This document shows, one piece after another, positions 10,538 to 50,044 of a DNA stretch of 64,000 nucleotides. The DNA lies in NCBI GenBank assembly GCA_017983445.1, contig JAGOBJ010000001.1, positions 125,632 through 189,631 on the forward strand. The letters run 5' to 3'. Under the pieces are notes generated by a model. It had not been told where the DNA came from. It searched no databases and worked only from the letters and a program-made list of their open reading frames with translations. The position numbers were made by a program, and so were the translations under genes. How positions within the stretch are numbered: the first letter of the stretch is position 1; each line of letters starts with the position of its first letter. This DNA is from Halomonas sp. (GTDB lineage Bacteria; Pseudomonadota; Gammaproteobacteria; Pseudomonadales; Halomonadaceae).

Positions 10538-10546
10538 CATAGCCCA

Positions 10547-10686: not shown

Positions 10687-11415
10687 TTAATTCAATGTTT
10701 TGCTGTTTTCTTCAATTGATCTTAATCGGTAGCCGTAGCCATAAACAGATACTAGATTCCAGCCGTGTTCAGCAGTAAGCAATAGTTTTTTTCTTATCCG
10801 ATGAATATGGACGTCAAGCGTTCGTGTATTAAGGTCGTTGTCGCGCCCCCACACATATTTGTATAAATAGGCACGAGAAAGAGGGCTATCAAGACGATTT
10901 AACAGAAGATAAGCAAGACGAAACTCTTGATGTGTGAGTGTAATATTCTGACCACTGATACATGCTGTTTCTTTCTGAGTATTAAGTTTTATACAGCCGA
11001 ACTCCAACTGATGGGCTTGATTTGTTGTGTAAGTAGTTTTTCGGCGCGAGGCTGCATAGGCACGAGCTGCTAATTCACGTGGTCGAAAGGGCTTGCTAAT
11101 GAAGTCGTCGGCACCTGCGTCCAACGCTTGAATAACATCAACCTCTTCCTGACGGTGAGTCACAATTACGACTGCCGGTAAAATCTTAAGATACCTCTTC
11201 ATCCAATCTAGTAAGTCGATGCCTGTACCATCAGGTAGATGCCAATCCAGAAGCACTAAATCAAACGTTTCACGACTCACGGTATGAATAAATGCCGCGC
11301 TGGTCTCAAATGCCGATATGTTTGATTGTATCCCTCTATTTATGAACCCTTCATAGAGCGCTTTTCGCATGCGTTCGAATATTACTTTTTCGTCCTCCAC
11401 AATTGCTATCCGCAT
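10687..11415 (-). CDS. OmpR/PhoB-family response regulator
   Basis: IVEDE, LLDWHLP (phospho-Asp), GADDFISKPF, winged helix RTLDVHIHRIRKKL...SVYGYGYRL. Confidence 0.93.
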   Translation of the reverse strand: MRIAIVEDEKVIFERMRKALYEGFINRGIQSNISAFETSAAFIHTVSRETFDLVLLDWHLPDGTGIDLLDWMKRYLKILPAVVIVTHRQEEVDVIQALDAGADDFISKPFRPRELAARAYAASRRKTTYTTNQAHQLEFGCIKLNTQKETACISGQNITLTHQEFRLAYLLLNRLDSPLSRAYLYKYVWGRDNDLNTRTLDVHIHRIRKKLLLTAEHGWNLVSVYGYGYRLRSIEENSKTLN

Positions 11416-11596
11416 AACTTCCCCTTGAATAGTCTCAATTTTATTTTTCTGAATGCTTCACCATATTTTGAAAAACAAAAGTTTAATTAATTATTTTTCA
11501 GTGAAATCTATAAGTTCTATCGCTTAAAAATCGATTAATTGATTCAAGCAGTAGTTGGTTTGATTTTATCTCAGTACATAAATTATGGCAGCAAGC

Positions 11597-11622
11597 GTTA
11601 ACAATTGTTAACTAATGTTGAG
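11597..11622. promoter_or_regulatory. Candidate response-regulator operator (three half-sites, 10-bp period)
   Basis: GTTAAC-AATT-GTTAAC-TAAT-GTTGAG in the divergent intergenic region; first 16 bp are a perfect palindrome. Confidence 0.45.
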
Positions 11623-11861
11623 ATGCGTGGCACGAAAGAACGAGAATGCCTCGACCAATGCTTATACCTAAAAAAAGATTGGTTAATGCCACCTCTAGGG
11701 AGTGGCAAGAAGTATATGGGAGCCGGTCGCCTGCCTTCTCCAGTGATAGCTCTTTTTGCCTCACTCATCTTGACGCTGCTCAGAGCTTGGGTGCTGTACC
11801 GCAAGTGAGCGTGAAGGATGTGTAAAGCGTTTCGACTAAATGATAAGTGGAAGGATATACA

Positions 11862-14800
11862 ATGAATAAAGTATTTCGCTTGATCTGGAATAGCTCCCTT
11901 GGACGCTTGGTGGTGGCATCCGAAATGGCTCGCGCCAGCCAAAAAGCAACCGGCTCCTCTGGTGTCGTAGGTGGGGCAGCGTTAGTTCCGATTTCTTGTC
12001 ATATAGTCCGAAAAGCTTTTCGTCTCTTGCCATTGACACTGGCCATGATACTGACAGGCGGCGCTGCATATGCTCAAACTAGCGTCTTGGCAGGTAGTAA
12101 CATTCTTGTTACTCCCGATAACGCAACCAACCCCACTGCTTACACAATTTCGACCGAAGATGATGTTACGTTCAATAATGTTTCTACTAACGAACTAACC
12201 GTCAGTAGCACAGCAATTCTCAGTGCTTTGCAGGTCACTGGAGCCACCACGTTAACTGGTGGCTTAGTCATGAGTAATAGCCAGATCACCGGTTTGGCGA
12301 ATGCCACTGCTAACGATCACGCCGTTAATTTAGGCCAGTTGAATGCGGTGAGTAACGCGGCTAATGCAGGTTGGAATATTAGTGCTGGCGGCGGTAGCTC
12401 TGAAAACGTTGCGCCAGGTGACTCCGTTGACTTCAGCGGCGACAGCAATATCAATGTTAGTCGCACAGGTACTAACCTTACCTTTAGTTTAGCCGACGAA
12501 ATCAATGTCGACCGTATTACGGCGGGTAGTGCTGCTTTCGGTAGCGACGGTTTGACTATTACTGGTGGACCAAGTGTAACGTCAGAAGGCATTGATGCAG
12601 GCGGTAGCACTATCACTAATCTTGGAACTGGTTTAATCGGAGAGGGTAGCCGGGACGCTGTAACCGGTGGACAGGTTTTTACCTATTTTGTCGAGGAAGG
12701 TCTCGGTGGAGGCATAAGATATTTCCGCGCAAATTCCGTTTTACCTGATTCAAGTGCAGAGGGATTGGACTCTATTGCGATTGGCCCTGAGGCAACGACC
12801 ACTGAATTTGGCGAAAGCGCTATTGCGATGGGACAAGGTGCCAAAGCCGGTGGCGAAAACGAGGGGGGGCAAGGGGCTATTGCCATCGGCCGTGGTAGCG
12901 AAGCGCAAGGTAACAGCACTATAGCGCTAGGCGATGGCGCGCAAGTCACTGGAACTCAGGATAATGGCTTTAGTGCTGGCGCCAACGCGATTGGTTTCGA
13001 CTCCCTGGCCAGTGCTGGCAATGCAATGGCTTTGGGTTCTAGCTCTATAGCGTCTGGTGTCGGTAGCCTTGCTGCTGGCTATGAGGCTGAAGCAGCAGCA
13101 GACAACGCGCTAGCGGCAGGTACAGGTGCCTATGCAGGTACCGAACGTGGGATTGCATTAGGCAGTGGGGCTGGTGTTGGTACCGAAGGCACCACAGCTA
13201 GAGATCGCACTGACCATATTGCAGTTGGTACTAATGCTGGTACTGGGGTGACCGGCAACCAGACTACCGCAATTGGATACGGAGCTGGTCAAAATGTAAT
13301 CGGTGATAATAATCTCGCATTTGGTACCGAAGCTGGACGAGGCTTGGTCGGTGATCACAATATTTCTATTGGTGCCCAGGCTAATAATGGAGCTGGAAAT
13401 CGCGCGCAATCTATTGCTATTGGTGATAACTCGGGGGCTGGTACTAACTCGGTAGCATTGGGTAGCGGTGCTCAGGCTGAGGGCGATGAGACACTGGCTC
13501 TAGGCAAGGATGCAAGCGCAGGAGTCAATGGTGTTGCATTAGGCGCTCTGGCAGTGGCTGAGGGAAGCAATATTGCACTGGGGCGTAATTCGCAGGCATT
13601 AGGTGTTGATGCAAGTGGTAGAGGCTACTTAACCGGTGAACCTGTCCCTGTTTCGGTGGTGTCAGTGGGAAGCTCGGCGCCTGGAGGAGAATTCCAGCGC
13701 CGCATAGTTAACGTCGCGGATGGCTCTCTGCGATACGATGCAGTCAACGTAGGACAGCTTCAAAGCTCCCAGCGCTCCATAACGCCGCTTATAGGAGGAG
13801 GCGTCGTTTTCAACCCGGATACGGGTACGTTCAGCACTATTACAATCGACGACATAGAATACAGTAGTGTTGCTGACGCTATTAGAGGTGCTGCTAATGG
13901 ACAAATTGATTCTGCTGCGCTACCTGCAGATGTCGTTCGTTATCAAGGGGCGGGCGATAACCGCCGGATCTCAAATGTAGGACAAGGTCAAGCTGATACG
14001 GACGCAGTGAATGTTGGCCAGTTGAACGAAGCAATTTCAGACAATGGCATTAGGTACTTCCATGCTAACACCACTGTTGATGCAAACAGGCAAAATGATG
14101 GTGCTAGCGGAGCTAACTCTATGGCTATTGGGCCCGCTGCCGTTTCTGGAGGAGCCTCAGCACTCGCTATAGGTCATATTGCCGTGGTCGACTCAGGTGC
14201 CAGTAGCGGTATCGCTATTGGCCATAATGTTAATGCTAAAGCAGTAAATTCAACTGCGTTAGGAAGTAATGGTACTGTCGCCTACGGCCAAGGGGGAGTT
14301 GCGATAGGGCAGCAGGCCATCAGTCAAGGACAAAATTCGATTGTCATAGGAACAGATGCCCAGGCTGATCCTCAATCTGGCGGAACGGTTAATAACGCTA
14401 TTGTGATGGGTACCGATGCTGAAGCCACTGCCGATAATGGAATGGCTATCGGCGAGAATGCATTAGCTGCCGCAGACAGTGCGGTAGCTCATGGCTTTGG
14501 TGCGGAGGCCCTAGCAGTCGACTCGCAAGCATTCGGCACCAATGCCACAACTAGTGGCGTGAGCTCCCAGGCGAGAGGCACTAGTGCTAACGCTAGCGGT
14601 ACCAATGCTCAGGCGAGTGGTACCAATGCTAATGCAAGCGGCACCAGTGCGATTGCCAGCGGTACCAACGCAGAAGGTTTGGCCGCCCACGGTATTGCCA
14701 TGGGAACCGGTGCGATTTCTGGATTTGAGCCTTTAACGACTGAAGAAGCTGCTCGTAATCGTGGCAGCATCGCGATTGGCGATCGCTCGGTTGCCAACGA

Positions 14801-17800
14801 TCGCAACGCTTTGGCGTTGGGTGTGCTGACCCGAGCCGAAGCTGAGTCTGCTATTGCCGTAGGTGATAGAGCCGTAGCTTCTGCCAACAATGCATTGGCG
14901 GTCGGTGTAAATTCGCAGGCGAATGCTCTAAACGCGTCGACATTTGGTTTTAATTCACGAGCGGAGGCGCAAAACGCATCAGCGTTTGGTCAAAATGCGC
15001 AAGCGGCAGCTATCGATTCATTGGCTGTAGGCCCTGGTGCTCGCGCTACCGCCGTAGACTCTTCTGCTTTTGGCCGTGGCGCAGAAGCGGTCCATACACG
15101 CTCTGTAGCATTGGGCGATGGGGCAAGAACTGAAGCAGCCTTTAACACAACGGGCGCAACAATTGATCGAGTTCCGTACACGTATGCTGGCACCACTCCT
15201 ATCGCAACCGTCAGCGTAGGGACCTTGGAAGGTGACAAGCGTACGATTACAAACGTTGCAGCCGGACGTGTGAGCGATATAAGTACTGATGCCATCAATG
15301 GCAGTCAGCTATTCCGCACTAACCAAGCCGTCACATCGCTAGGCAATAATCTGGATACTGCAGGTCAAAGTGTTGCAAATTCCCTTGGCGGTACCTCTAC
15401 CTATAATGCCAATAACCATACGGTTTCGGCCAACCTATCTGTGCGTGGTAACAACTACACAAACGTGCAAGACGCGATTCAGTACGCCGCTCAAGGTTGG
15501 AATGTAAGCGCCAATGGAGCCGCATCGCAGAACATTGCGCCGAATGGTTCGGTCGATTTCAATAATACCGATGACAACATTGCGATTAGCCGTAGTGGGT
15601 CCAATCTGACATTCAATCTGGCTAATAACGTAGAGGTCGGTAATAGCGTTACGGTTGGTGATACCGTTATTAATGGTGACAACGTTACCTCTGATAGCTT
15701 GACGATTGGCGGCTCTACCTTTGTTGTTGATGGTGGCAACGCCACTTATAACGGTAACGAGTTGGCTACTCAGGCAGATGGCTTAAGCTTTGCCGGCAAT
15801 ACCGGTGGCACTATCACCAAAGCCTTGAGCGATACTGCGCCGCTGACCATCTCCGGTGAGCTGGATGCAGGCGATGCAGCTACTGGTGCAAATATGCGCG
15901 TCAGTAGCGATGGCAATCAGTTAAATCTGCTAATGGCGCGCAACTTGGCCGACCTGGACAGTATCACCATCAATAACGGCGGCCCGGTGATCAACGGCGG
16001 CGGTATCGATATGAACGATACCCAGATTGTAGGATTGGCGGATGGCACAGCAGATGATCATGCGGTCAATCTGGGGCAGCTCAATGATCTTGCCGACACG
16101 CCGCTAACGTTTGGAGCCAATCAAGGCCCTGACTCCGAACGCCGTCTGGGCCAGCGCCTGGATATCGTTGGAGAAGAGGATGCTGACGGTAACAGCAATA
16201 TCATCACCACGCTGACCGGTGAGGAAACGCTGGCACTGGCACTGAACGACGACCTTACCATCGGTAATAGCATCACCATTGGCAATACGTTCATTGACGG
16301 TGACAGCGTTACTACCAATAGCGTCACTGTAAACGAAGACCTGAGTGTAGGGGGTGATACTTATCTGGGTGATAGCTTCTCGGTGGTAAACAATGAGGCG
16401 ACTTACACAGGCCCTATCACTAACGATAACTCTGTTGTTAACAAACAGTACGTCGATGGCATAGAAACTCATTACTACAGCGTCAATGATGGAGACACCC
16501 CGCGTGGTAACTATGCCAATGACGGGGCTACAGGACTTACATCACTTGCGGCCGGTGTTGATGCGTCAGCCTCAGCGCTACGTAGCACTGCGCTGGGTTA
16601 CAGCAGTAATGCTGCGGGTATCGATAGTATTGCGGTTGGCGACAGTTTGGCGAGTGGCCGAAATACCATAGCCATTGGTAATGGTGCACAGACTGATGGC
16701 GCGAACACTGAGGGCGTGTTCGAGGGTGCTGTTGCCATTGGCTACAATGCCAAATCAGATGGATTTCTTGCCACTGCGGTTGGGTCTCGGGCCCAGGCAG
16801 TCGGTACAGGTTCTATTGCGATAGGTGACTCAGCCACAACCGCTAATGCAGACGCTACCAATGCTGAAAGTATAGCCATTGGCGCATCAAGCCAAGCAAC
16901 TGGAGACCAGTCAGTTGCACTGGGTGCAAACGTCGTTGCCTCTGGTAACTCATCAACAGCAGTTGGTGGGGATGATATTGATAAAATTGCAAATAATACA
17001 GAACAAGCGGATCAGTACACTGCTATTACTGGTGGAACAATTATTCCTACGCAGTATATATCAACAACTGCTTCTGGCGCTGGTTCCTCAGCATTCGGGG
17101 TAGCGTCAGTTGCGTCTGGGAATTTCTCAAGTTCCATTGGGATGATGTCATCAGCTACGGGTGCTGCGTCAGTCGCATTAGGTGTTAACTCTAACGCTGA
17201 AGGGCAAGGTGCACTAGCAATTGGTGCGGTTTCTACTGCTTCGAATTCAGGTTCTGTTGCAGTAGGTATTAACTCAAGATCAGCCGGTGAAAACGCCATC
17301 GCCATTGGCTCTGGTAACACTGCTACTACTGGCGCAAATTCAACTGGCACAAATTCGGTGGCTATTGGAGCAGGTGCCAATGCCAGTGTGGCTAACTCTG
17401 TTGCACTTGGAGCGGGCTCTATAGCCAACGGCACTACAAGCACGACCGCTTATCAGCCATTAGATGCCGATGGCAATCCGATTGCCGTAGCCGCCCCGAC
17501 AGCGACAAGCGAAGTTTCGGTGGGCTCTTCCGGTAACGAGCGCCGTATCACCAATGTCGCGGCGGGGGCATTAGATACCGATGCGGTCAACGTTAGCCAG
17601 TTGAAAGCGGTTAATGAAGTTGCGAATACTCCGCTGACGTTTGGAGCCAATCAAGGCCCTGACTCCGAGCGCCGCCTGGGCCAGCGTCTGGATATCGTTG
17701 GAGAAGAGGATACTGAAGGTAACAGCAATATCATCACCACGCTGACCGATGAGGAAACGCTGACACTGGCACTGAACGATGACCTTACCATCAATAATAG

Positions 17801-20800: not shown

Positions 20801-21080
20801 TGAGAATGAGATTATCAACGTGCATGGCCGCATCGATAGTGTTGAACGGAATGCCAATGCTGGTTCTGCCAGCGCGATCGCAGCTTCAACTGTACCGCAA
20901 GCCTGGATGCCCGGTAAAAGCATGATAGGTGTAGGTGCAGGTACCTATAGTGGAGAGTCTGCAGTCTCAGTCGGTGTTTCAAGGCTTTCTGACAATGGCC
21001 GCTGGGTTATCCAAGGCAAGGTCACGGGCGATTCGCAAAGCAACTTCGGCGCAGGTATTGGCGCTGGCTGGCACTGGTAA
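11862..21080 (+). CDS. Giant trimeric autotransporter adhesin (YadA/AtaA-like), ~3,070 aa
   Basis: Extended signal peptide MNKVFRLIWNSSLGRLVVASE...AAYA; many YadA head repeats (AIAIG/ALALG); necks R.I.NVA.G...DAVN..QL; C-terminal anchor ending GAGIGAGWHW; RBS AAGGA before ATG 11862. Confidence 0.96.
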   Translation: MNKVFRLIWNSSLGRLVVASEMARASQKATGSSGVVGGAALVPISCHIVRKAFRLLPLTLAMILTGGAAYAQTSVLAGSNILVTPDNATNPTAYTISTEDDVTFNNVSTNELTVSSTAILSALQVTGATTLTGGLVMSNSQITGLANATANDHAVNLGQLNAVSNAANAGWNISAGGGSSENVAPGDSVDFSGDSNINVSRTGTNLTFSLADEINVDRITAGSAAFGSDGLTITGGPSVTSEGIDAGGSTITNLGTGLIGEGSRDAVTGGQVFTYFVEEGLGGGIRYFRANSVLPDSSAEGLDSIAIGPEATTTEFGESAIAMGQGAKAGGENEGGQGAIAIGRGSEAQGNSTIALGDGAQVTGTQDNGFSAGANAIGFDSLASAGNAMALGSSSIASGVGSLAAGYEAEAAADNALAAGTGAYAGTERGIALGSGAGVGTEGTTARDRTDHIAVGTNAGTGVTGNQTTAIGYGAGQNVIGDNNLAFGTEAGRGLVGDHNISIGAQANNGAGNRAQSIAIGDNSGAGTNSVALGSGAQAEGDETLALGKDASAGVNGVALGALAVAEGSNIALGRNSQALGVDASGRGYLTGEPVPVSVVSVGSSAPGGEFQRRIVNVADGSLRYDAVNVGQLQSSQRSITPLIGGGVVFNPDTGTFSTITIDDIEYSSVADAIRGAANGQIDSAALPADVVRYQGAGDNRRISNVGQGQADTDAVNVGQLNEAISDNGIRYFHANTTVDANRQNDGASGANSMAIGPAAVSGGASALAIGHIAVVDSGASSGIAIGHNVNAKAVNSTALGSNGTVAYGQGGVAIGQQAISQGQNSIVIGTDAQADPQSGGTVNNAIVMGTDAEATADNGMAIGENALAAADSAVAHGFGAEALAVDSQAFGTNATTSGVSSQARGTSANASGTNAQASGTNANASGTSAIASGTNAEGLAAHGIAMGTGAISGFEPLTTEEAARNRGSIAIGDRSVANDRNALALGVLTRAEAESAIAVGDRAVASANNALAVGVNSQANALNASTFGFNSRAEAQNASAFGQNAQAAAIDSLAVGPGARATAVDSSAFGRGAEAVHTRSVALGDGARTEAAFNTTGATIDRVPYTYAGTTPIATVSVGTLEGDKRTITNVAAGRVSDISTDAINGSQLFRTNQAVTSLGNNLDTAGQSVANSLGGTSTYNANNHTVSANLSVRGNNYTNVQDAIQYAAQGWNVSANGAASQNIAPNGSVDFNNTDDNIAISRSGSNLTFNLANNVEVGNSVTVGDTVINGDNVTSDSLTIGGSTFVVDGGNATYNGNELATQADGLSFAGNTGGTITKALSDTAPLTISGELDAGDAATGANMRVSSDGNQLNLLMARNLADLDSITINNGGPVINGGGIDMNDTQIVGLADGTADDHAVNLGQLNDLADTPLTFGANQGPDSERRLGQRLDIVGEEDADGNSNIITTLTGEETLALALNDDLTIGNSITIGNTFIDGDSVTTNSVTVNEDLSVGGDTYLGDSFSVVNNEATYTGPITNDNSVVNKQYVDGIETHYYSVNDGDTPRGNYANDGATGLTSLAAGVDASASALRSTALGYSSNAAGIDSIAVGDSLASGRNTIAIGNGAQTDGANTEGVFEGAVAIGYNAKSDGFLATAVGSRAQAVGTGSIAIGDSATTANADATNAESIAIGASSQATGDQSVALGANVVASGNSSTAVGGDDIDKIANNTEQADQYTAITGGTIIPTQYISTTASGAGSSAFGVASVASGNFSSSIGMMSSATGAASVALGVNSNAEGQGALAIGAVSTASNSGSVAVGINSRSAGENAIAIGSGNTATTGANSTGTNSVAIGAGANASVANSVALGAGSIANGTTSTTAYQPLDADGNPIAVAAPTATSEVSVGSSGNERRITNVAAGALDTDAVNVSQLKAVNEVANTPLTFGANQGPDSERRLGQRLDIVGEEDTEGNSNIITTLTDEETLTLALNDDLTINNSITVGDTFMDGDSVTTNNLTVTGETRLGDNFVVNNDGNVTYEGAITDGNHIVNKDYVDGAGDDLIAQGMNFAGNDGQVIHKDLGEQLNVVGGMTDMTEGAASAENLRTVMNDDDELEIQLSRNLTDLESVESTTVNVTEELTVAGNTTINDAGTTTNNLTVTGETRLGDNFFVNNDGNVTYEGAITDGNHIVNKDYVDGAGDDLIAQGMNFAGNDGQVIHKDLGEQLNVVGGMTDMTEDAASAENLRTVMNDDGELELQLSRNLTDLESVESTTVNVTEELTVAGNSTINEGGTTTNNLTVTGETRLGDNFFVNNDGNVTYEGAITDGNHIVNKDYVDGAGDDLIAQGMNFAGNDGQVIHKDLGEQLNVVGGMTDMTEGAASAENLRTVMNDDDELEIQLSRNLTDLESVESTTVNVTEELTVAGNTTINEGGTTTNNLTVTGETRLGDNFVVNNGGNVTYEGDITDGNHITNKQYVDNSVGGLADTPLTFGADEGTDSERRLGDRLDIVGEADADGNRNIVTKLTSNSTLELALNDDLIIGNSISVGDGPVISGGGINMSDTKITNLIAGEVSDDSQDAINGSQLYATNQWIENLQGNFVNIVGDSSNAYITNNGRGIRYVRTNDSGLDVSDAFAQGLGSTALGYEASATADQALAMGYEAVAAHQGSVALGAGAQTSAAVGTASIEIAGQTYQFAGINPVATVSVGSVGAERTITNVAAGRISASSTDAVNGSQLHATNQAVGDLDNRVTTVEGDINNINNDLADLDSRAVKYDRNDDGSVDYTTITLEGEGGTTITNVAAGDITENSMDAVNGSQLWDVQNQITNIEQGGSKYFRANSNGPAASSQGTDSIAMGPSSVAEGERSVASGAGSRAEADGSVALGADSVADREGMNGKRERFSNEEVASTQGAVSVGSAGNERQITNVAGGTQDTDAVNVRQLDAVQRGAANYDRDENGNVDYGTITLRGEEGTTITNLAPGVNASDAVNVGQMNDLGRRFENEIINVHGRIDSVERNANAGSASAIAASTVPQAWMPGKSMIGVGAGTYSGESAVSVGVSRLSDNGRWVIQGKVTGDSQSNFGAGIGAGWHW
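16098..16277 (+). repeat. Dispersed 180-bp adhesin module, copy 1 (others at 17628-17807 and 19257-19436)
   Basis: TPLTFGANQGPDSERRLGQRLDIVGEED...LALNDDLTIGNSIT recurs three times; copies 1 and 2 nearly identical at DNA level. Confidence 0.9.
17841..19232 (+). repeat. Tandem 420-bp (140-aa) repeats, 3 full units plus a partial fourth
   Basis: ACCACCAA(T/C)AACCTGACGGT at 17841, 18261, 18681 and 19101. Confidence 0.96.
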
Positions 21081-21091
21081 AGGAGAAGATC

Positions 21092-21919
21092 GTGATTAAT
21101 TCAAATATGAATATTAAGGCGGCCCTTGGGGTCGCCAGTATGACGGCTGTTCTTACTTTGGCAGGCTGCGCTAGCCCACCCAATAACGACCGGACAGAGT
21201 TGCGTGATGAGGGAGACGGCTTTCCTGCCTTGAATAAAAACTGGTATGCAGGTGGTCAGTTTGTGAATCCTGATGATGTACTTCGCATTACTAAAGGACA
21301 AACAAAAGATCAGGTGCGTCAGCTAATCGGAAATCCTCATTTCACTGAAGGTTTCTTTGGTGTGCGGGAATGGAACTACGTTTTTAACCTTTATACAGGC
21401 AATGGAAACGACTACATCACCTGCCAATATCAAGTTCATTTCGCTGATGATATGGCGTTGGAAAGTACGCGTTGGCGAGAGGCGCAATGCCCATCGCTGC
21501 TAATGCCCATAAAGGTAGAAGAAATCGAACAGCAGCCGCGCCAGGAAAAGCTAACGCTTTCAGGTGATGTTATGTTTGATTTTGATAGTGACCAACTGTC
21601 ACTGGAAGGTCAGCGCGCTTTAGAAATAATTGCTCAAGCAGCTCGCAGTGAATATGAGTCGCCAAAGCTGTCAGTGGTTGGTTACACGGACCGCTTTGGT
21701 AGTGAGCAGTATAACGTTGATTTATCACAATCACGCGCTGAGGCTGCCGGTAAATATCTAAGCAGCCAAGGTATCCAAAGCAGCAATATTACGATGGCTG
21801 GCAGAGGTGAAGCTGAGCCCATAGTAGAGTGTCCAGGAGCGATAGCGACTCCCAGTGTTACGAATTGCCTAAGGCCGAATCGCCGTGTGGAAATAACTAT
21901 TACCGAGCGTACACGCTAA
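21092..21919 (+). CDS. TpgA-like lipoprotein: BamE/SmpA domain plus OmpA-like peptidoglycan-binding domain
   Basis: Lipobox LAGC; GQTKDQVRQLIGNPHF...REWNYVF; GYTDRFGS..YN..LSQSRA and NRRVEI; 11 bp after the adhesin stop. Confidence 0.9.
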   Translation: MINSNMNIKAALGVASMTAVLTLAGCASPPNNDRTELRDEGDGFPALNKNWYAGGQFVNPDDVLRITKGQTKDQVRQLIGNPHFTEGFFGVREWNYVFNLYTGNGNDYITCQYQVHFADDMALESTRWREAQCPSLLMPIKVEEIEQQPRQEKLTLSGDVMFDFDSDQLSLEGQRALEIIAQAARSEYESPKLSVVGYTDRFGSEQYNVDLSQSRAEAAGKYLSSQGIQSSNITMAGRGEAEPIVECPGAIATPSVTNCLRPNRRVEITITERTR

Positions 21920-22007
21920 CCACAAGCATGCGAGTAGCGTTGTTTCACTAAAGAATAGGGGCTACTTACCCTAGCCTCTATTAAAAATTTAAGGAGTTAA
22001 GGAATAT

Positions 22008-22412
22008 ATGAAGTACGCAGGATATATCGTGACATTTAGTATCGCTGTAGTCGTAGCCGTTGGACTATCTGTATTTAGTATTGGAGTATTAGCAGAACAG
22101 CCCGGACGTGACGCTGTTAAGCAAATAGATCAAAGTTCGATATGTATTGCATCAACTGATAGACAAGCTCTCGAATGCCCAGAGGGAGGGCTTTTTTTAG
22201 CAAGATTGGCCATTAATGATGCGGACGTTCAAGCCCCTATGGTAATTGAAAACCGTGTACTCAACACAATGGCTCTTTATTGCGATACTAACTTTGCGAT
22301 CCAGCATACTCAAACTGGCGTATTATGCGTGCTAACACATAAGCGTATGAGTACACAGCCTCAAAATGGTATGACGCAAGAAGCAGAAAGTGCTTCACAA
22401 ACACCTGACTAG
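22008..22412 (+). CDS. Hypothetical exported protein with four Cys
   Basis: RBS AAGGAG/AAGGA; hydrophobic N-terminal signal ending VLA; Cys in ICIAS, LECPE, LYCDT, VLCVL. Confidence 0.7.
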   Translation: MKYAGYIVTFSIAVVVAVGLSVFSIGVLAEQPGRDAVKQIDQSSICIASTDRQALECPEGGLFLARLAINDADVQAPMVIENRVLNTMALYCDTNFAIQHTQTGVLCVLTHKRMSTQPQNGMTQEAESASQTPD

Positions 22413-22695
22413 ATAAGAGTTTTACTAAACGAGCATTTTAAGTAAAAGCAAGTTTTATAATTTAAAGCATTGATGTTTAGAAGCTAATAATTATATAAAG
22501 AAATAGCATGCTTATTATGAAAAAAGGCCATCGAAACAAAAGATGTCGAGATGACAAGAATCATTCAGTATATGCATCTTCAAATATCACAAGGGTGCGT
22601 GTGCGACAGCAATATAAATATTGAACGAAAATAGCAAGCTGCCTTTTTTGCCCGATAGGCCTACGTCTATCGGGCTTTTTCAGAGGAATCAACGT

Positions 22696-23613
22696 ATGAG
22701 GATAATGTCCTGGCTCACTCTCATCCTGTGGGGAACCAGCGCCTTGGTATACGCGGATTACGATACCGGCCTCAATGAATATAATCGTGCAAATTATGCC
22801 TCCGCCATTCATGAATGGCGAACAGACGCTGAGCGAGGAAACGCTGATTCTCAGTTTGCATTAGGGATGATGTACGAACGTGGCCAGGGCGTCAGGCAAA
22901 ATACGAACGAAGCTTTCAAATGGTATCGCCTTTCTGCAGATAACGGCTTGATAGATGCCCAGTTGCGCCTGGGTGAACTTTATCTGTTAGAAGTAATAGA
23001 TGGGGAGCCTGATCAAGCTGCACGCTGGTTCAAGAAAGCGGCAGAGGAAGGCAGCGCCTCAGCGCAGTTTCAACTGGGATTGCTCTATTTGGAAGGACAT
23101 GGTGTTGAGGTATCGACTGAGCAGGCAGCACGATGGTTTGAGCTGGCGGCTGAACAGGGTTTTGTCCCTGCACAAAACAATATTGGAAGTTTATACGAAA
23201 ATGGCCAAGGGGTTGAGCAAAGTTACACCCGCGCGTTTGAATGGTATGAGCGTGCAGCTAAACAAAATGATGCCTTTGCTCAAAATAGCCTTGGGGCACT
23301 TTATGCTAAAGGCAATGGAGTAGAGCGGAACCATGCCTGGGCGGTTTTCTGGTTTGTGATGGCAGCGCAAAGTGGTAATACGTTGGCTCAAGAGAATATT
23401 GCTGCAAGCTTGCAACATCTGGAAGAAAAACAGATGACTGGTAGCCAGGTCAATATTCGAGCGGGTGCCAGTATTGAATTTGAGCGCATTGCCTCACTTT
23501 CAAGAGGCGAGACCGTTTATGTATTAGGGAGTATGGATGGATGGAGCCAAATATATTTTCAACAGGAAGGATTGCCAGTAATAGGCTGGGTATCAAACAC
23601 ACTGATTAATTAA
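22696..23613 (+). CDS. Sel1-like repeat protein with C-terminal SH3b domain
   Basis: Signal peptide; about five SLR units (AQF.LG..Y..G.GV....A..WF..AAE.G); VNIRAGAS...GETVYVLGSMDGWSQI...GWVS; RBS AGAGGA before ATG 22696. Confidence 0.88.
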   Translation: MRIMSWLTLILWGTSALVYADYDTGLNEYNRANYASAIHEWRTDAERGNADSQFALGMMYERGQGVRQNTNEAFKWYRLSADNGLIDAQLRLGELYLLEVIDGEPDQAARWFKKAAEEGSASAQFQLGLLYLEGHGVEVSTEQAARWFELAAEQGFVPAQNNIGSLYENGQGVEQSYTRAFEWYERAAKQNDAFAQNSLGALYAKGNGVERNHAWAVFWFVMAAQSGNTLAQENIAASLQHLEEKQMTGSQVNIRAGASIEFERIASLSRGETVYVLGSMDGWSQIYFQQEGLPVIGWVSNTLIN

Positions 23614-23769
23614 AAAATAGCAGGCAAATAGTCATAGATCAGATGAATGGTTGTAAAAAAAAGTGCTTATCACGTTTTGTGCACGCAGGGACATAATGAA
23701 AAAAATAGCCTATCTGACAGTGCTATAAGAAAATCCTTAATTTTCCGTCACTACAGGCTTGTAAGAATA

Positions 23770-25014
23770 ATGAAGCATTACGTTAACTTATTTATAGGTG
23801 CTATGTTGCTGGCTAGCATAACCGCTAATGCCAGTGATTCTGTTGAAGGCGGACATCGCATTGTTTTAGGAGATACACTATGGAGAATTGCTGAGCGTTA
23901 CTATGGTACTCCTTCTGAATGGTCATTTTTACAACAATTAAATACGATTTCTGAACCTACCAATCTGCAACCTGGATATTTACTGGATGTGGGCATGGTT
24001 GACTCATTTCCTTTAACTGTACTCTACCTTTCTGGAAATGCCTGGTTTATTCAAAACAGTGCCGAAACACGCCTGACAATAGGACAAACCATTGAAGCTG
24101 GAGTTACTCTCTTAACAGGAAGAGACACTGCATTAACATTACAAATGAATGATGGTGCACGAATTGTCGTGCCCTCTATGTCACGCGTTACGCTGAAGCG
24201 TGAGGGGGAAAAAGGGGTTACGCTGTTCCTGGAACAAGGAGAAGTTGAATCCTATGTGCCCACTCAGCGTATGCTGCAACGCCCTTATAATATAGAGACC
24301 TACAATGGTGTGCTGGGAGTCCGCGGAACTCACTTTCAGGCGCGCTATGAATCCAGTGCGTTGTTAGCCTCAGTTTATGAGGGGAACGTAGCAGCTGGAA
24401 ATCATATGGTATCTGAGCAGGCCTTTATTGCTGCGGGAAGAGGCGCGCGAATTGGTAATGAGGGAAATGTTCAAGTTGTCACGCTTCTTCCACCACCGGA
24501 ATATGTCAATATCTCTTCGCTAGCATCTGGTGAGATAAAATTAGATGTATTGTCAACGACGGCGGGTGCAAGATACCGGGCACAAATAGCAAACGACCCA
24601 GGCTTTCTAAATATTTTACGCGATGAGCGAACTGAAATTGGACAGCTGCATTTTACAGCTCTTCCGCCGGGGTTTTATCATCTGCGTATTGCGGAAATAG
24701 ATGAACTAGGGATAGAAGGCTATAGCACTACTCAAATTTTTTATCATCATAGTGAACAGGTAAATTTGTCTTTAGAAGATAATGCATGGCTATTTGAGTG
24801 GAATCATCGGCCTCACAAAAGCTATACCTTACAGCTCGCTACTGATCGTTATTTTAATACGGTCCTGTTAAATTACACACCGCATAAAGCTGGAATTCTG
24901 AAAGTCGATCGTTTGCCTTTTGACGAGATATATTGGCGTATTTCGAGTTTTGACGAGCTGGAAAATACAACCAATGTGATTGGTAATGGAATATTGAATG
25001 ACGCTGAACACTAG
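23770..25014 (+). CDS. LysM-FecR-(Fn3/Ig-like) periplasmic protein
   Basis: Signal MKHYVNL...ANA; LysM GDTLWRIAERYYG...LN.I..P.NLQPG; FecR motif LEQGEV...GVLGVRGTHF; C-terminal YRAQIANDPGF beta modules. Confidence 0.85.
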   Translation: MKHYVNLFIGAMLLASITANASDSVEGGHRIVLGDTLWRIAERYYGTPSEWSFLQQLNTISEPTNLQPGYLLDVGMVDSFPLTVLYLSGNAWFIQNSAETRLTIGQTIEAGVTLLTGRDTALTLQMNDGARIVVPSMSRVTLKREGEKGVTLFLEQGEVESYVPTQRMLQRPYNIETYNGVLGVRGTHFQARYESSALLASVYEGNVAAGNHMVSEQAFIAAGRGARIGNEGNVQVVTLLPPPEYVNISSLASGEIKLDVLSTTAGARYRAQIANDPGFLNILRDERTEIGQLHFTALPPGFYHLRIAEIDELGIEGYSTTQIFYHHSEQVNLSLEDNAWLFEWNHRPHKSYTLQLATDRYFNTVLLNYTPHKAGILKVDRLPFDEIYWRISSFDELENTTNVIGNGILNDAEH

Positions 25015-27286
25015 AGTTTTTTCTCGAAAATTACATAAGCGTTTTGTTATCACATGGTGGGCAATGGGGAGCTTACTGTTACCCATTGCTTTTTTTTTGC
25101 ATAGTTTTTCCCCTTTATTATCGGATAATTACTTTTACGATGCCTGGCTATCCTGGCGAGAAAAGCCTCCTTCTTCAGATATATTGATTGTGGCAATTGA
25201 TGAGTCAAGCCTGCAGGCATTAGGGCGCTGGCCATGGCCCCGTAATATACATGCTCAACTTATTCAGAAATTGCAAGATGACAATGTTGAAAATATTGTT
25301 TTAGATATCTTGTTGGTTGAGCCGAGCCGCTTGCCCAGCGAAGATGTATTGTTAGCCGAATCAATGCGCGAGCATGGAGCCGTCTATCTTCCTGTAAGCC
25401 TTCTTACTGATTACCAGGCTGGGAATAGTATGCGAGATGTCCTAATCCCGACACTACCACTGTTGCAGGCAGCAAAAGCTACGGGCCACATTAATATCGA
25501 TATTGATAAAAATGGTGTGCCCCGTACTGTCGAATTGATAAAGTCGCGCGATGGTCAACAATGGCCTCAGCTAATGGTGCCGGTAAGCGCTGATAGAGCA
25601 ATTAAGCTGCCTTCCCAGCCAGTAAGAATTCCATTTCGAGGCCCTTCTGGTCATTACCCAACAGTTTCTTATGTCGATGTGCTAATGGGATCTGTTCCTG
25701 CTTCCTTATTAAATGGCCGTACCGTCATAATAGGTATTACCGCCCAAGGATTAGGGGATCTATATAATGTATCATTGTTATCTAAAGGGCTGATGCCAGG
25801 AGTTGAGATACATGCCCATTTGCTTGATGCCATTAGAGATGGTGCGCTGATACGTGAAGTAAGGCAAGAATTCGGCGCATTAATGGCTAGTATGCCAATT
25901 ATAATACTAATGCTTTTAGCCTGGTGGTTACGCTTTCGCCATTTATTGCTAACGACAATGCTGCTTAGTATTGGCGTATTGGCTTTTTCTTTAACAATGT
26001 TGAGCTTTCGGTGGTGGTGGCCGCCTACTGCTAGCTTAATAGCGTTAGGTATGGCGTCAATTGTTATTGTTGGGCAAAGCCAAGCAATATTATTGAGTTG
26101 GTTCAAACAGGAGCTAGACCTTTTATACCAAGAGCCTGCTATGTTGCCATATAAAGAAAAAAAGCTAATTCTTAATTCAGGTAGCAGGATCTATCAGCAG
26201 TCGCAAGCACTTGAGTTGGCGTTAAATCGTCTTGTCGATGGCCGTCGCTTTATTTTTGATGCTTTGCACTCTTTACCACTGCCTATTTTTATTTTAAATA
26301 AAGAGGGAGGGGTAATGTTAGCTAACAAGAAAGCTTTAGCGCTTCGTGGAGAAAAAAATTTCTGTAGTATTAAACATATCAATGATTTACTGCAAGCTTT
26401 GACTTTCGAAAAAAACCAAACGTTAACATCATTGTGGCCGCCTGCATTTACTGCTGGAATGATAGAGAAGAATATCTGTAATGGGGGCGTATGCGTTGAT
26501 GGAAAAGGGAGTACTTATCGATTAGAAATGGGTAGCCTGGCAACGTCCGTACGCAGTATTGAAGAAAGTTGGTTGCTATGGTTGGTAGATTTAACAAGTG
26601 AGGTAGAGGCTGAAGCACAGCGCGCCAGTATGTTAAGATTTCTTTCTCATGATATGAAAGCGCCACAAACCAGGGCTTTAGCTCTTATCGATGCCCAGCG
26701 TGAACCGGAATTAGCCCTGTCACAGGAAGTTTTCTATCGCACCTTAGAACAAGACTTAAATACAGGAGTAGGAATGATCAATGATTTCATTGATCTCACA
26801 AGGGTGGAAACGCTAAATTTTGAAAACTCTTTTGTTCTACTAGAGGATATAGTGATAGAGGTATTGGATCAGGTGTTTCCTCTTGCTCAGGCCAAGAGTA
26901 TTAAAATTATTAGTACTTGTAATGATGAAGGTGGAGCTCCCGTGATGGGAGATAAAGGCTATCTCTCCAGAGCTATATTTAATCTGATCGAAAATGCCGT
27001 AAAGTATAGTTACCCTCGTGGAGAAATTCTTGTTCACGTTGTTGTAAATAATAAGTGGGTATATTTAAACGTTATTGATGAAGGGGTAGGTGTTAATAAT
27101 AAGGATATCAATGCTATATTTGAAGATTATAGACGTAGTGGTGAATATAATATGGCGCAAGGACATGGCCTTGGTTTAGCTTTAGTAAAAGCAGTAGCAG
27201 AAAACCATGGCGGTTGCGTGTCTTGTAAGAGTGAGTTGGGAGTAGGGAGCCACTTTATATTCAAAATTCCAAGGCTTGAGGAATAA
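24998..27286 (+). CDS. CHASE2-PAS-like-HisKA-HATPase sensor histidine kinase
   Basis: CHASE2 motif IVAIDESSL..LGRWPWPR; three TM helices; H-box SHDMKAP; N-box NLIENAVKYS; DEGVG; GHGLGL. Confidence 0.93.
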   Translation: MTLNTRVFSRKLHKRFVITWWAMGSLLLPIAFFLHSFSPLLSDNYFYDAWLSWREKPPSSDILIVAIDESSLQALGRWPWPRNIHAQLIQKLQDDNVENIVLDILLVEPSRLPSEDVLLAESMREHGAVYLPVSLLTDYQAGNSMRDVLIPTLPLLQAAKATGHINIDIDKNGVPRTVELIKSRDGQQWPQLMVPVSADRAIKLPSQPVRIPFRGPSGHYPTVSYVDVLMGSVPASLLNGRTVIIGITAQGLGDLYNVSLLSKGLMPGVEIHAHLLDAIRDGALIREVRQEFGALMASMPIIILMLLAWWLRFRHLLLTTMLLSIGVLAFSLTMLSFRWWWPPTASLIALGMASIVIVGQSQAILLSWFKQELDLLYQEPAMLPYKEKKLILNSGSRIYQQSQALELALNRLVDGRRFIFDALHSLPLPIFILNKEGGVMLANKKALALRGEKNFCSIKHINDLLQALTFEKNQTLTSLWPPAFTAGMIEKNICNGGVCVDGKGSTYRLEMGSLATSVRSIEESWLLWLVDLTSEVEAEAQRASMLRFLSHDMKAPQTRALALIDAQREPELALSQEVFYRTLEQDLNTGVGMINDFIDLTRVETLNFENSFVLLEDIVIEVLDQVFPLAQAKSIKIISTCNDEGGAPVMGDKGYLSRAIFNLIENAVKYSYPRGEILVHVVVNNKWVYLNVIDEGVGVNNKDINAIFEDYRRSGEYNMAQGHGLGLALVKAVAENHGGCVSCKSELGVGSHFIFKIPRLEE

Positions 27287-27375
27287 AAACGCTTATAAAC
27301 TTGGCAAGTATGACCGAAGCCTATGAAGAAGAAGGCCATCGTTTGGATGTCGCTTCTCCTGCCTAGCATAGCGTA

Positions 27376-50038: not shown

Positions 50039-50044
50039 GCTGGC

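What the first reader, a model, noticed from the sequence alone, without database searches (positions are those of the whole stretch)
10687..27286. Candidate undescribed system: giant trimeric adhesin wired to a peptidoglycan-anchored CHASE2 signalling relay
Seen: one island holds an OmpR-type regulator divergent from adhesin, TpgA-like lipoprotein, 4-Cys exported protein, Sel1-SH3b, LysM-FecR and a CHASE2 kinase. Three separate exported proteins each carry a different cell-wall-binding fold (OmpA-like, SH3b, LysM). The kinase and regulator bracket the cargo from opposite ends. Known: TpgA links the AtaA adhesin base to peptidoglycan in Acinetobacter Tol 5; two-component genes flank TAA clusters in Burkholderia; CHASE2 ligands are largely unknown. 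Inference: load on, or assembly state of, the adhesin is relayed through TpgA and Sel1 to LysM-FecR, then to CHASE2 and the regulator, which feeds back on adhesin transcription. This would be a surface-contact or mechanosensing loop.
Basis: partly seen in the sequence, partly recalled or inferred. Interest (0 to 1): 0.85.

Follow-up and report, generated by a model that had tools for sequence, protein, structure and literature searches.

The report
Giant adhesin cassette inside a biofilm sensor locus
A Halomonas-type bacterium carries a foreign 16.7-kb island in which a giant surface adhesin and its helper genes sit between the regulator and the sensor genes of a widespread, barely studied biofilm two-component system, which gives that system a first candidate target gene; nothing shows that the adhesin itself is what the sensor detects.

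Summary
All seven genes are present with the stated domains.

The island has two separable modules.
- Module B is the regulator, the LysM-FecR protein and the CHASE2 kinase. It is a conserved three-component system. About 150 loci were fetched, and in 48 of 88 non-redundant ones it is a contiguous RR>FecR>HK operon. It is already linked to biofilm in Burkholderia (PMC5192318, PMC4324302).
- Module A is TAA-TpgA-4Cys-Sel1/SH3. It occurs without any FecR/CHASE2 genes in Cobetia and Guyparkeria.

Here A lies between the divergent regulator and FecR-HK. In one kinase subfamily the linkage recurs. TAA-TpgA appears in at least five gene orders, and Alloalcanivorax has a chaperone-usher pilus operon in exactly the same slot. 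A close relative has the same purC/trmO site without cargo.

The best reading is that the system regulates the adhesin as its output. The proposed relay from adhesin load through TpgA and Sel1 to FecR has no support, but it is not excluded.

The island is bracketed by about 160-bp direct repeats of the purC/trmO junction and has a low GC3.

Verdict: partly supported; a new variant of a known kind; interest 0.55.

The parts
10479..10638 (+). Left copy of the direct repeat that flanks the island. It holds the real purC 3' end, a bidirectional terminator hairpin (10568-10592) and a leftover trmO 3' fragment on the reverse strand. Similarity continues to about 10680 with a 6-bp indel.
   Evidence: BLASTN finds 84% identity over 160 bp with 27308-27467. 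The 35-mer occurs only twice in the window, against 0 expected. tblastn finds a TrmO fragment at 10550-10660, 69% over 39 aa.
10687..11415 (-). OmpR-family response regulator, an orthologue of the regulator of the RR/LysM-FecR/CHASE2-HK system (Bcen2424_1436 / PA4032 type).
   Evidence: Pfam Response_reg and Trans_reg_C. D57, T86 and K108 are present. phmmer gives E 1e-37 to 1e-114 to regulators that sit in operons with FecR and CHASE2-HK.
11416..11862 (.). AT-rich (38% GC) divergent intergenic region between the regulator and the adhesin. It is the presumed control region for both.
   Evidence: Sequence and GC. Promoter-like sites are present on both strands but are not enriched over shuffles. 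No Rfam element was found. No convincing regulator-binding motif was found.
11863..21080 (+). Giant trimeric autotransporter adhesin of about 3072 aa, with ESPR, head and stalk repeats and a C-terminal YadA anchor. It contains a 420-bp tandem repeat at 17841-19232 (3.3 copies).
   Evidence: Pfam and the tandem repeat finder.
21092..21919 (+). TpgA-like lipoprotein with a BamE-like N-domain and an OmpA_C peptidoglycan-binding domain, 11 bp downstream of the adhesin.
   Evidence: Pfam BamE 3e-16 and OmpA 3e-18. The N-domain matches the solved Tol 5 TpgA chain 9vnj_B at 4.5e-19. NCBIfam TpgA NF047726 matches full length at 168 bits, below the 350-bit equivalog cut-off.
22008..22412 (+). Exported 134-aa protein with four invariant cysteines. 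It belongs to a very small family without a Pfam or NCBIfam model and is part of the adhesin cassette.
   Evidence: No Pfam or NCBIfam hit. Alignments show C46, C57, C92 and C107 invariant. Only 22 representative clusters match among 1.84 billion proteins. The AF2 model has pLDDT 81 and no PDB fold match, best E 0.36.
22650..22681 (+). Terminator-like hairpin (11-bp stem) plus a T-run, between the 4-Cys gene and the Sel1-SH3 gene.
   Evidence: Scan. An equivalent hairpin with a T-run is present at the same place in L083 and L084.
22696..23613 (+). Periplasmic Sel1-repeat (x5) + SH3b protein, part of the adhesin cassette.
   Evidence: Pfam Sel1 4.6e-49 and SH3_3 3.5e-9. Orthologues sit after TAA-TpgA-small gene in Guyparkeria and Cobetia, where no FecR/CHASE2 genes are present.
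23770..25014 (+). Periplasmic LysM - FecR-like beta-sandwich - two Fn3-like domains protein (COG4254 type), the presumed co-sensor of the kinase.
   Evidence: Pfam LysM 2e-7 and FecR 1e-14. The AF2 model has pLDDT 84. Its FecR domain superposes on the PupR C-terminal signalling domain 6ovk_R (E 1e-6, rmsd 2.8 A), followed by tandem Fn3 matches. It is always immediately upstream of the CHASE2 kinase.
24998..27286 (+). CHASE2 sensor histidine kinase. Its start overlaps the end of the FecR gene by 17 nt.
   Evidence: Pfam CHASE2 7.6e-48, HATPase_c 2e-22 and HisKA. The catalytic motifs are invariant in 19 homologues. 610 homologues were found.
27308..27467 (+). Right copy of the flanking direct repeat. 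It holds a leftover purC 3' fragment (…MTEAYEEEGHRLDVASPA*), the terminator hairpin (27397-27421) and the real trmO 3' end.
   Evidence: The same purC fragment follows the kinase in Halomonas sp. 86 (L081).

Best explanation
The region is a horizontally acquired composite island made of two modules.

**Module B** is a three-component signalling system. It consists of a CHASE2 histidine kinase, a peptidoglycan-tethered periplasmic LysM-FecR-Fn3 partner whose gene overlaps (and is probably translationally coupled to) the kinase gene, and an OmpR-family regulator. This is the same system that is required for biofilm in Burkholderia.

**Module A** is a type Vc adhesin cassette: the giant TAA, its TpgA-type peptidoglycan anchor, a 4-Cys protein and a Sel1-SH3 periplasmic protein.

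Module A lies in the slot between the divergently transcribed regulator and the FecR-kinase pair.

**Proposed working**
1. The kinase, together with the FecR-like partner, senses a periplasmic or cell-envelope cue. The cue is unknown and this step is inferred.
2. The kinase phosphorylates the regulator. This is inferred from conserved operon partnership.
3. The regulator acts on the 447-bp AT-rich divergent region to switch the adhesin operon, and with it surface attachment and biofilm. This is inferred from position, from cargo swapping in relatives and from the Burkholderia phenotypes.
4. A conserved hairpin after the 4-Cys gene probably lowers read-through into Sel1-SH3, FecR and the kinase (inferred).

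The adhesin is the output of the system, not its input.
For: **Cognate system**
- RR>FecR>HK is a contiguous operon in 48 of 88 non-redundant loci, and RR is divergent from FecR>HK in 21.
- The window regulator is far closer to those regulators than to other OmpR-family ones.
- The FecR and kinase genes overlap.

**Biofilm link**
- A plasposon in the regulator abolishes biofilm in B. contaminans (PMC5192318).
- Six independent mutations in Bcen2424_1436 suppress wrinkly, high-biofilm variants of B. cenocepacia (PMC4324302).

**Modularity**
- TAA-TpgA-small-Sel1/SH3 occurs without FecR/CHASE2 in Cobetia and Guyparkeria.
- The same purC/trmO site holds regulator, FecR and kinase without cargo in L007.

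**Output logic**
- Alloalcanivorax and two metagenome lineages have fimA-papD-papC-mrkD in exactly the same slot between the regulator and FecR.
- TAA-TpgA is adjacent to the system in at least five gene orders: the window type, L003/L004, L061, L156 and L093.
- All adhesin-linked loci fall in one kinase subfamily.

**Foreign island**
- Flanking direct repeats of about 160 bp.
- GC3 of 0.31-0.50 inside against 0.56-0.62 in the flanks.
Against: - There are no expression data. No RNA-seq run holds this organism.
- No regulator-binding motif shared by the candidate promoters could be found.
- Most loci of the system, including Burkholderia where the biofilm phenotype was seen, have housekeeping neighbours and no adjacent adhesin. 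Adjacency is therefore not a general property of the system.
- A published survey of TAA neighbourhoods judged signalling genes 'not specifically adjacent' to TAAs.
- The sampling of loci is biased towards relatives of this window.
- The kinase tree is a rough neighbour-joining tree without support values.
- The terminator-like hairpin could mean that the adhesin and the sensor genes are separate transcripts.
Confidence: 0.6

Rival explanations
1. The assembly state of the adhesin, or mechanical load on it, is the input. The signal passes from the TAA anchor through TpgA and/or Sel1-SH3 to the LysM-FecR protein, then to CHASE2 and the regulator, which feeds back on adhesin transcription.
For: - All candidate relay proteins are exported and three are wall-binding.
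- FecR-type domains are known to dock onto periplasmic domains of outer-membrane proteins, and the model superposes on the PupR signalling domain.
- A TpgA-like gene stays next to FecR-HK in H. caseinilytica (L005) even though no TAA lies within 10 kb.
- In the window clade a hairpin places Sel1-SH3 transcriptionally with FecR-HK.
- Linkage of TAA-TpgA with the sensor survives several rearrangements.
Against: - The sensor trio exists without TAA, TpgA or Sel1 in the large majority of loci.
- Sel1-SH3 and the 4-Cys protein stay with TAA-TpgA where FecR/CHASE2 are absent.
- A chaperone-usher pilus replaces the TAA cassette in the same slot with no TpgA or Sel1.
- In Pseudomonas-type loci the slot holds an aquaporin and sometimes a GGDEF gene.
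- No interaction data of any kind exist.
Confidence: 0.12
2. The two modules are merely neighbours. They were brought together in one island by recombination, and the two-component system controls other genes elsewhere in the genome.
For: - The modules are separable.
- Most loci of the system have unrelated housekeeping neighbours.
- A strong terminator-like hairpin lies between the adhesin part and the sensor part.
- The whole block is a mobile insertion.
- The TAA neighbourhood survey found no specific signalling partner.
Against: - The linkage is kept at 39-72% kinase identity and through at least five different gene orders.
- A second class of adhesin occupies the identical slot in another family.
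- The orthologous regulator is genetically tied to biofilm.
- By my own rough estimate, which is not a computed figure, direct adjacency of a TAA to a given gene should occur in well under 1% of loci by chance. Here 12 of 88 non-redundant loci carry a TAA.
Confidence: 0.2
3. This is a variant of the main model. Sel1-SH3 acts like ExoR of Sinorhizobium, as a periplasmic Sel1-repeat protein that binds and modulates the sensor kinase. The cassette would then tune the sensor without the adhesin being sensed mechanically.
For: - Sel1-SH3 is periplasmic and is encoded directly upstream of FecR-HK, downstream of the hairpin.
- It gives a weak generic match to the ExoR model (5e-16).
- L002 also has Sel1-SH3 directly before FecR-HK.
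Against: - The ExoR match is 58 bits against a 450-bit cut-off, and MerG, AlgK and MotX match similarly, so it reflects only the Sel1 repeats.
- Orthologues exist in cassettes without any CHASE2 kinase.
- Most kinases of the family have no such neighbour.
Confidence: 0.08

Closest known systems
BiofilmReg operon of Burkholderia contaminans / Bcen2424_1436-1438 of B. cenocepacia HI2424 / PA4032-PA4035-PA4036 of P. aeruginosa (OmpR-type RR + LysM-FecR COG4254 protein + CHASE2 kinase)
   Same: It has the same three protein families. The FecR gene lies directly before the kinase and overlaps it, and the window proteins are orthologous by similarity. The Burkholderia phenotype (biofilm, attachment) fits a neighbouring adhesin.
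   Different: - Here the regulator is divergent and is separated from FecR-HK by 12.3 kb of adhesin cargo.
- There is no DUF4136 fourth gene.
- Pfam detects no PAS domain in this kinase.
- No target gene or signal is known for any member. P. aeruginosa reviews list PA4032 and PA4036 as 'unknown'.
AtaA-TpgA of Acinetobacter sp. Tol 5 (TAA plus peptidoglycan-anchoring helper)
   Same: A giant TAA is followed immediately by a BamE-like + OmpA_C protein. The N-domain matches the solved TpgA chain at 4.5e-19. The TAA-TpgA pairing is widespread, with 644 homologues in a 2026 survey.
   Different: - The cassette also carries a 4-Cys protein and a Sel1-SH3 protein that have not been described as TAA partners.
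- It is embedded in a two-component locus.
- The score is below NCBI's TpgA equivalog cut-off.
Burkholderia cepacia complex TAA clusters flanked by histidine kinases and regulators (BCAM0218-0228)
   Same: TAAs, an OmpA-like lipoprotein and two-component genes lie in one cluster, and regulation by the neighbouring system has been proposed but not shown.
   Different: The kinases and regulators were not shown here to be the same families. No paper in the searchable library mentions CHASE2 together with trimeric autotransporters. A Paraburkholderia locus (L011) does have RR>CHASE2-HK>TAA, but without FecR.
FecR/PupR-type cell-surface signalling
   Same: The FecR-like domain has the same fold as the PupR periplasmic signalling domain, a module that binds a periplasmic domain of an outer-membrane protein.
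   Different: There is no cytoplasmic anti-sigma domain, no ECF sigma factor and no TonB-dependent transducer in the island. The protein is fully periplasmic, with LysM and two Fn3-like domains, and it feeds a histidine kinase.
Two-component systems next to chaperone-usher fimbrial clusters (for example Rcs/Pvr with cupD in P. aeruginosa; recalled from my own knowledge, not checked here)
   Same: Adhesin genes are flanked by the signalling genes that control them, in a mobile island.
   Different: The kinase and regulator families are different, and there is no LysM-FecR partner.

Membership tests
Trimeric autotransporter adhesin (type Vc) | N-terminal (extended) signal peptide | tested here: met
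   ESPR 8.5e-12 at residues 6-44.
Trimeric autotransporter adhesin (type Vc) | YadA-type head and stalk repeats and a C-terminal YadA anchor | tested here: met
   14 head stretches, 10 stalk stretches and an anchor at 3017-3077 (5.4e-16).
TpgA (TAA- and peptidoglycan-associated protein A) | BamE-like N-domain homologous to TpgA, plus an OmpA_C-like domain | tested here: met
   9vnj_B matches at 4.5e-19 over residues 44-137. OmpA-domain structures match at about 1e-20. Pfam BamE and OmpA.
TpgA (TAA- and peptidoglycan-associated protein A) | Encoded directly downstream of a TAA | tested here: met
   The gap is 11 bp. The same pairing is seen in L081, L083, L084, L087, L088, L089, L091-L093 and L156.
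TpgA (TAA- and peptidoglycan-associated protein A) | Score above NCBI's equivalog cut-off | tested here: not met
   NF047726 gives 168 bits against a cut-off of 350, although the alignment is full length. It is a family relative, not an equivalog.
TpgA (TAA- and peptidoglycan-associated protein A) | Forms a complex with the TAA anchor and with peptidoglycan | not testable with these tools
   Needs biochemistry.
RR / LysM-FecR / CHASE2-HK three-component system (BiofilmReg type) | CHASE2 periplasmic domain on a histidine kinase with intact catalytic motifs | tested here: met
   CHASE2 7.6e-48. H551, the N-box and the G-boxes are invariant.
RR / LysM-FecR / CHASE2-HK three-component system (BiofilmReg type) | Exported LysM+FecR protein encoded immediately upstream of the kinase | tested here: met
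   There is a 17-nt overlap. The same pairing occurs in essentially all fetched loci.
RR / LysM-FecR / CHASE2-HK three-component system (BiofilmReg type) | Orthologous OmpR-family regulator | tested here: met
   E 1e-37 to 1e-114 to the operonic regulators, against at best 1e-18 to other OmpR-family regulators in the same loci.
RR / LysM-FecR / CHASE2-HK three-component system (BiofilmReg type) | Regulator, FecR and kinase contiguous in one co-directional operon | tested here: not met
   The regulator is divergent and 12.3 kb away. The divergent form is typical of the gamma-type subfamily, 21 of 88 clusters.
RR / LysM-FecR / CHASE2-HK three-component system (BiofilmReg type) | Fourth gene DUF4136 (Burkholderia form) | tested here: not met
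   Absent here. Present in 24 of 88 clusters.
RR / LysM-FecR / CHASE2-HK three-component system (BiofilmReg type) | Loss of the regulator reduces biofilm | not testable with these tools
   Known only for Burkholderia.
FecR-type anti-sigma cell-surface signalling | Cytoplasmic anti-sigma domain, one transmembrane helix, and partner ECF sigma factor and TonB-dependent transducer genes | tested here: not met
   The protein has a signal peptide followed by LysM instead. No sigma factor or TonB receptor gene lies in the island.
ExoR-type periplasmic kinase inhibitor | Specific similarity to ExoR beyond the Sel1 repeats | tested here: not met
   58.6 bits against a cut-off of 450. MerG, AlgK and MotX match equally well.

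The most novel reading that the evidence does not exclude
The LysM-FecR/CHASE2 sensor reads the state of the cell-surface organelle encoded beside it. In this reading the FecR/Fn3 protein docks on the periplasmic face of the TAA-TpgA complex (or on the usher in the pilus-linked relatives), so the cell senses assembly of, or load on, its own adhesin and adjusts expression. That would make it a surface-contact sensor built on a type V adhesin. A weaker novel reading is that the 4-Cys and Sel1-SH3 proteins are new accessory factors for very long TAAs.
Probability: 0.12. Interest if true: 0.85.

Novelty: new variant of a known kind. Interest (0 to 1): 0.55.

Why it matters
[quoted passage not shown] The RR/LysM-FecR/CHASE2 system is widespread in Proteobacteria and is genetically tied to biofilm in Burkholderia, yet no target gene or signal has been identified.

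Loci where an adhesin operon sits inside the system give a concrete and easily tested candidate target. In Halomonadaceae that operon is a TAA; in Alloalcanivorax it is a chaperone-usher pilus. These loci also offer a natural set of cargo swaps for asking what the sensor reads.

The finding also points to two undescribed proteins, a 4-Cys protein and a Sel1-SH3 protein, that accompany TpgA next to very long TAAs. A recent global survey concluded that no further TAA helpers were likely to exist.

Tried and rejected
1. **Search for a shared regulator-binding site.** I looked for direct-repeat dyads, including the CreB-like TTCAC-N6-TTCAC and a TGTAAA-N4/5-TGTAAA dyad seen upstream of some regulators. 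There was one weak hit 35-50 nt before the TAA start and nothing consistent across adhesin-linked loci. The result is inconclusive.
2. **Rfam scan of the island** for riboswitches such as c-di-GMP. Nothing was found.
3. **RNA-seq evidence for operon structure.** No RNA run holds this sequence. The window comes from a wastewater metagenome.
4. **DNA alignment of the intergenic regions with the cargo-less relative L007**, to define insertion boundaries. Only the coding regions align.
5. **Metagenome scan with the single FecR protein.** It found nothing. A repeat with an alignment worked.
6. **DUF6447 remnant in the 283-bp gap before Sel1-SH3.** None was found.
7. **Fold search for the 4-Cys protein.** There was no significant PDB match.
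8. **FecR-type cell-surface signalling, TsaP-like secretin partner and ExoR-like inhibitor as family assignments.** All were rejected on missing defining features.
9. **The idea that Sel1-SH3 belongs to the sensor module.** It was rejected because orthologues sit in TAA cassettes that lack the sensor.

Full report
**1. What is there**

- An OmpR-family response regulator lies at 10687-11415 on the minus strand.
- It is divergent, across a 447-bp region of 38% GC, from a roughly 3072-aa trimeric autotransporter adhesin (TAA). The TAA has ESPR, 14 head and 10 stalk stretches and a YadA anchor. Its ORF runs 11847-21080, and the ATG at 11863 gives the typical MNKVFRLIWN start.
- Eleven bp downstream is a BamE+OmpA lipoprotein (21092-21919, lipobox LAGC).
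- Next comes a 134-aa exported protein with four cysteines (22008-22412).
- Then a signal-peptide Sel1x5+SH3b protein (real start 22696).
- Then a signal-peptide LysM+FecR protein (real start about 23770).
- Overlapping the latter by 17 nt is a CHASE2 histidine kinase (24998-27286) with all catalytic motifs.
- The regulator has the acidic pocket, D57, T86 and K108.

The flanking genes are purC on the left and trmO plus a GNAT gene on the right. The rest of the window is housekeeping. The best kinase homologues are from Halomonas and Vreelandella. The sequence itself is found in a wastewater metagenome.

**2. The signalling genes are one known system**

I fetched 80 genome loci and 74 metagenome loci around kinase and FecR homologues. 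I then scanned their six-frame ORFs with the window proteins.
- After collapsing to 88 clusters at 85% FecR identity or less, 48 have a contiguous co-directional RR>FecR>HK operon. These are Burkholderia, Paraburkholderia, Achromobacter, Bordetella, Oxalobacteraceae, sphingomonads and Brevundimonas.
- A further 21 have the regulator divergent from FecR>HK.
- The window regulator matches these regulators at E 1e-37 to 1e-114. Other OmpR-family regulators in the same loci reach 1e-18 at best.

The distant, divergent regulator is therefore very probably the kinase's partner.

This trio has been described before.
- It is the 'BiofilmReg' operon of B. contaminans, where a plasposon in the regulator abolishes biofilm (PMC5192318).
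- It is Bcen2424_1436-1438 of B. cenocepacia, where six independent mutations in the regulator suppress wrinkly, high-biofilm variants (PMC4324302).
- In P. aeruginosa the orthologues PA4032 and PA4036 are still listed as unknown.
- No target gene and no signal is known for any member.

**3. The adhesin genes are a second, separable module**
- The BamE-OmpA protein is a true TpgA relative. Its N-domain matches the solved Tol 5 TpgA chain 9vnj_B at 4.5e-19, far better than BamE itself. The NCBIfam TpgA model aligns full length, though below the equivalog cut-off.
- Orthologues of the Sel1-SH3 protein are confined to Halomonadaceae and Guyparkeria.
- In Guyparkeria (L088) and Cobetia amphilecti (L089) the order is TAA-TpgA-small protein-Sel1/SH3 with no FecR or CHASE2 gene after it.
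- The 4-Cys protein belongs to a tiny family of 22 representative clusters among 1.84 billion proteins. Its four cysteines are invariant and many members are lipoproteins. The confident AF2 model (pLDDT 81) matches no solved fold.

Sel1-SH3 and the 4-Cys protein therefore belong with the adhesin, not with the sensor.

**4. How the two modules are joined**
- The seven-gene order of the window is kept in Halomonas sp. 86, V. alkaliphila, V. aquamarina and several metagenome contigs. In these the kinase is only 39-72% identical.
- A relative (L007, kinase 56% identical) has the same chromosomal site, purC - RR(-) - FecR - HK - trmO(-), with no cargo.
- Alloalcanivorax xenomutans and two further metagenome lineages have RR(-) | fimA-papD-papC-mrkD | FecR-HK. 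That is a chaperone-usher pilus operon in exactly the slot the TAA cassette occupies here.

TAA-TpgA also sits beside the system in other orders:

| Locus | Gene order |
|---|---|
| Halomonas elongata type (L003/L004) | <TAA \| FecR>HK> <(Sel1<4Cys<)TpgA |
| Variovorax (L061) | <TpgA<TAA \| RR>FecR>HK |
| L156 | TAA>TpgA>RR>FecR>HK |
| L093 | TAA>TpgA>FecR> <RR |
| Paraburkholderia (L011) | RR>CHASE2-HK>TAA, a paralogous pair without FecR |

A rough neighbour-joining tree of 66 kinases puts all TAA- or pilus-linked loci in one subfamily, together with the Pseudomonas-type loci. In the Pseudomonas-type loci the slot holds an aquaporin and sometimes a GGDEF gene. The linkage therefore looks like a trait of that subfamily, kept through rearrangements and cargo swaps, and not like many independent recruitments.

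In the other subfamily the neighbours are mostly housekeeping genes (hemA, prfA, valS, rpoC, AcrB) plus DUF4136. There are sporadic giant adhesin-like neighbours in two sphingomonads.

In total, 12 of 88 non-redundant loci carry a TAA and 2 carry the pilus operon. By my own rough estimate, which was not computed, chance adjacency should be well under 1%. The sample is biased towards relatives of the window.

**5. The island is a mobile insertion**
- A direct repeat of about 160 bp, 84% identical, flanks the block at 10479-10638 and 27308-27467.
- Each copy holds the purC 3' end, a bidirectional terminator hairpin and the trmO 3' end.
- The left copy therefore carries a dead trmO fragment and the right copy a dead purC fragment.
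- The ancestral state was purC> <trmO, and the whole block from regulator to kinase was inserted with duplication of the junction. The purC fragment after the kinase is also present in Halomonas sp. 86.
- GC3 is 0.31-0.44 for the island genes (0.50 for the TAA) against 0.56-0.62 for the flanks.

**6. Mechanism**

Several points are shown by the data:
- the domain content;
- the overlap of the FecR and kinase genes;
- the orthology of the trio;
- the separability of the two modules;
- the recurrence of adhesin cargo in the slot.

The AF2 model of the LysM-FecR protein (pLDDT 84) shows LysM, then a beta-sandwich that superposes on the PupR cell-surface-signalling domain (6ovk_R, rmsd 2.8 A over 135 columns), then two Fn3-like domains. 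This is a wall-tethered protein-binding module, and the simplest reading is a periplasmic co-sensor for CHASE2.

The remaining steps are inferred:
- the kinase phosphorylates the regulator;
- the regulator controls the divergent AT-rich region and hence the adhesin operon;
- a hairpin plus T-run before Sel1-SH3, also present in L083 and L084, lowers transcription of Sel1-SH3, FecR and the kinase relative to the adhesin.

The signal is unknown.

**7.

Nothing found here supports a path from adhesin load through TpgA and Sel1 to FecR.
- The sensor works without those genes in most species.
- The cassette exists without the sensor.
- A pilus can replace the TAA.

Some points keep the idea alive:
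- FecR-type domains do bind periplasmic parts of outer-membrane proteins;
- a TpgA-like gene stays beside FecR-HK in L005, where no TAA is near;
- the linkage is stubborn.

I give it about 0.12.

**8. What failed**

Motif discovery for a regulator site, Rfam, RNA-seq and intergenic alignment with L007 gave nothing usable. Gene calls in the fetched loci rest on six-frame phmmer hits and simple ORF picking. The tree has no support values.

**9. Verdict**

The parts are known: a TAA-TpgA pair and the BiofilmReg-type three-component system. The following are new as far as the searchable literature shows, since no paper holds both 'CHASE2' and 'trimeric autotransporter', and a 2026 TAA neighbourhood survey named no such partner:
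- the recurrent embedding of adhesin operons inside that system;
- the swap between TAA and pilus cargo;
- the two extra cassette proteins.

This makes it a new variant of a known kind. It is useful mainly because it hands an orphan, widespread sensor system a testable target.

Noticed in passing
window 10479-10680 and 27308-27515: A direct repeat of about 160-190 bp (84% identical) brackets the island. Each copy is the purC 3' end plus a terminator hairpin plus the trmO 3' end, which leaves a dead trmO fragment on the left and a dead purC fragment on the right. This implies that the whole block from regulator to kinase was inserted into an ancestral purC> <trmO junction with duplication of the target.
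   Followed up: yes
window 10687-27286: The island genes have a much lower GC3 (0.31-0.44, TAA 0.50) than the flanking purC, trmO and GNAT genes (0.56-0.62). This is consistent with foreign origin.
   Followed up: yes
window 22650-22681; L083 about 7690-7720; L084 about 3805-3850: A strong hairpin followed by a T-run lies just upstream of the Sel1-SH3 start and is present at the same place in two other species. It would split or attenuate transcription between the adhesin part and the Sel1-FecR-kinase part.
   Followed up: partly
L007 9860-12396: In the relative that lacks the adhesin cargo, the CHASE2 kinase reads as two overlapping ORFs (9860-11449 and 11443-12396). This is either a frameshift, meaning gene decay after loss of the cargo, or an assembly error in the MAG.
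   Followed up: no
L099-L159 (Pseudomonas-type metagenome loci), e.g. L105 8283-9856: In this group the slot between the divergent regulator and FecR-HK holds an aquaporin (MIP) gene and in some loci a GGDEF diguanylate cyclase. The FecR protein lacks the LysM domain. From memory this corresponds to PA4032-PA4036 of P. aeruginosa, with aqpZ.
   Followed up: partly
L033 2-7627 and 13292-22231; L046 13021-21588: In two sphingomonads of the other kinase subfamily the RR>FecR>HK operon is flanked by giant adhesin-like genes. Croceibacterium has a Big_9/cadherin protein and a PATR-repeat autotransporter passenger. A Sphingomonas MAG has an SdrD_B/DUF11 protein.
   Followed up: partly
L083 7324-7653; L084 3445-3795; L089 9588-9884; L091; L092: Several TAA cassettes carry an extra small DUF6447 gene between the 4-Cys gene (or TpgA) and Sel1-SH3. 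The window has no such gene and no remnant of it.
   Followed up: yes
L088 5874-15818: In Guyparkeria the TAA-TpgA-small-Sel1/SH3 cassette is followed by MacB/FtsX and C39-peptidase genes, a different two-component set (GerE-type regulator, PAS kinase) and a Flp/Tad pilus cluster. This is another adhesion island, with a different sensor.
   Followed up: no
window 17841-19232: A 420-bp (140-aa) tandem repeat of 3.3 copies at 93% identity lies inside the adhesin stalk. It is a likely source of length variation. TAAs of relatives range from about 2300 to 4900 aa.
   Followed up: no
window 42890-52798: An SSF-PAS hybrid kinase, a regulator, an SSF permease and a cNMP-CBS-DUF294 gene lie about 16-25 kb downstream. 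The same gene set lies directly next to FecR-HK in Alloalcanivorax (L085). This is probably ordinary synteny.
   Followed up: no
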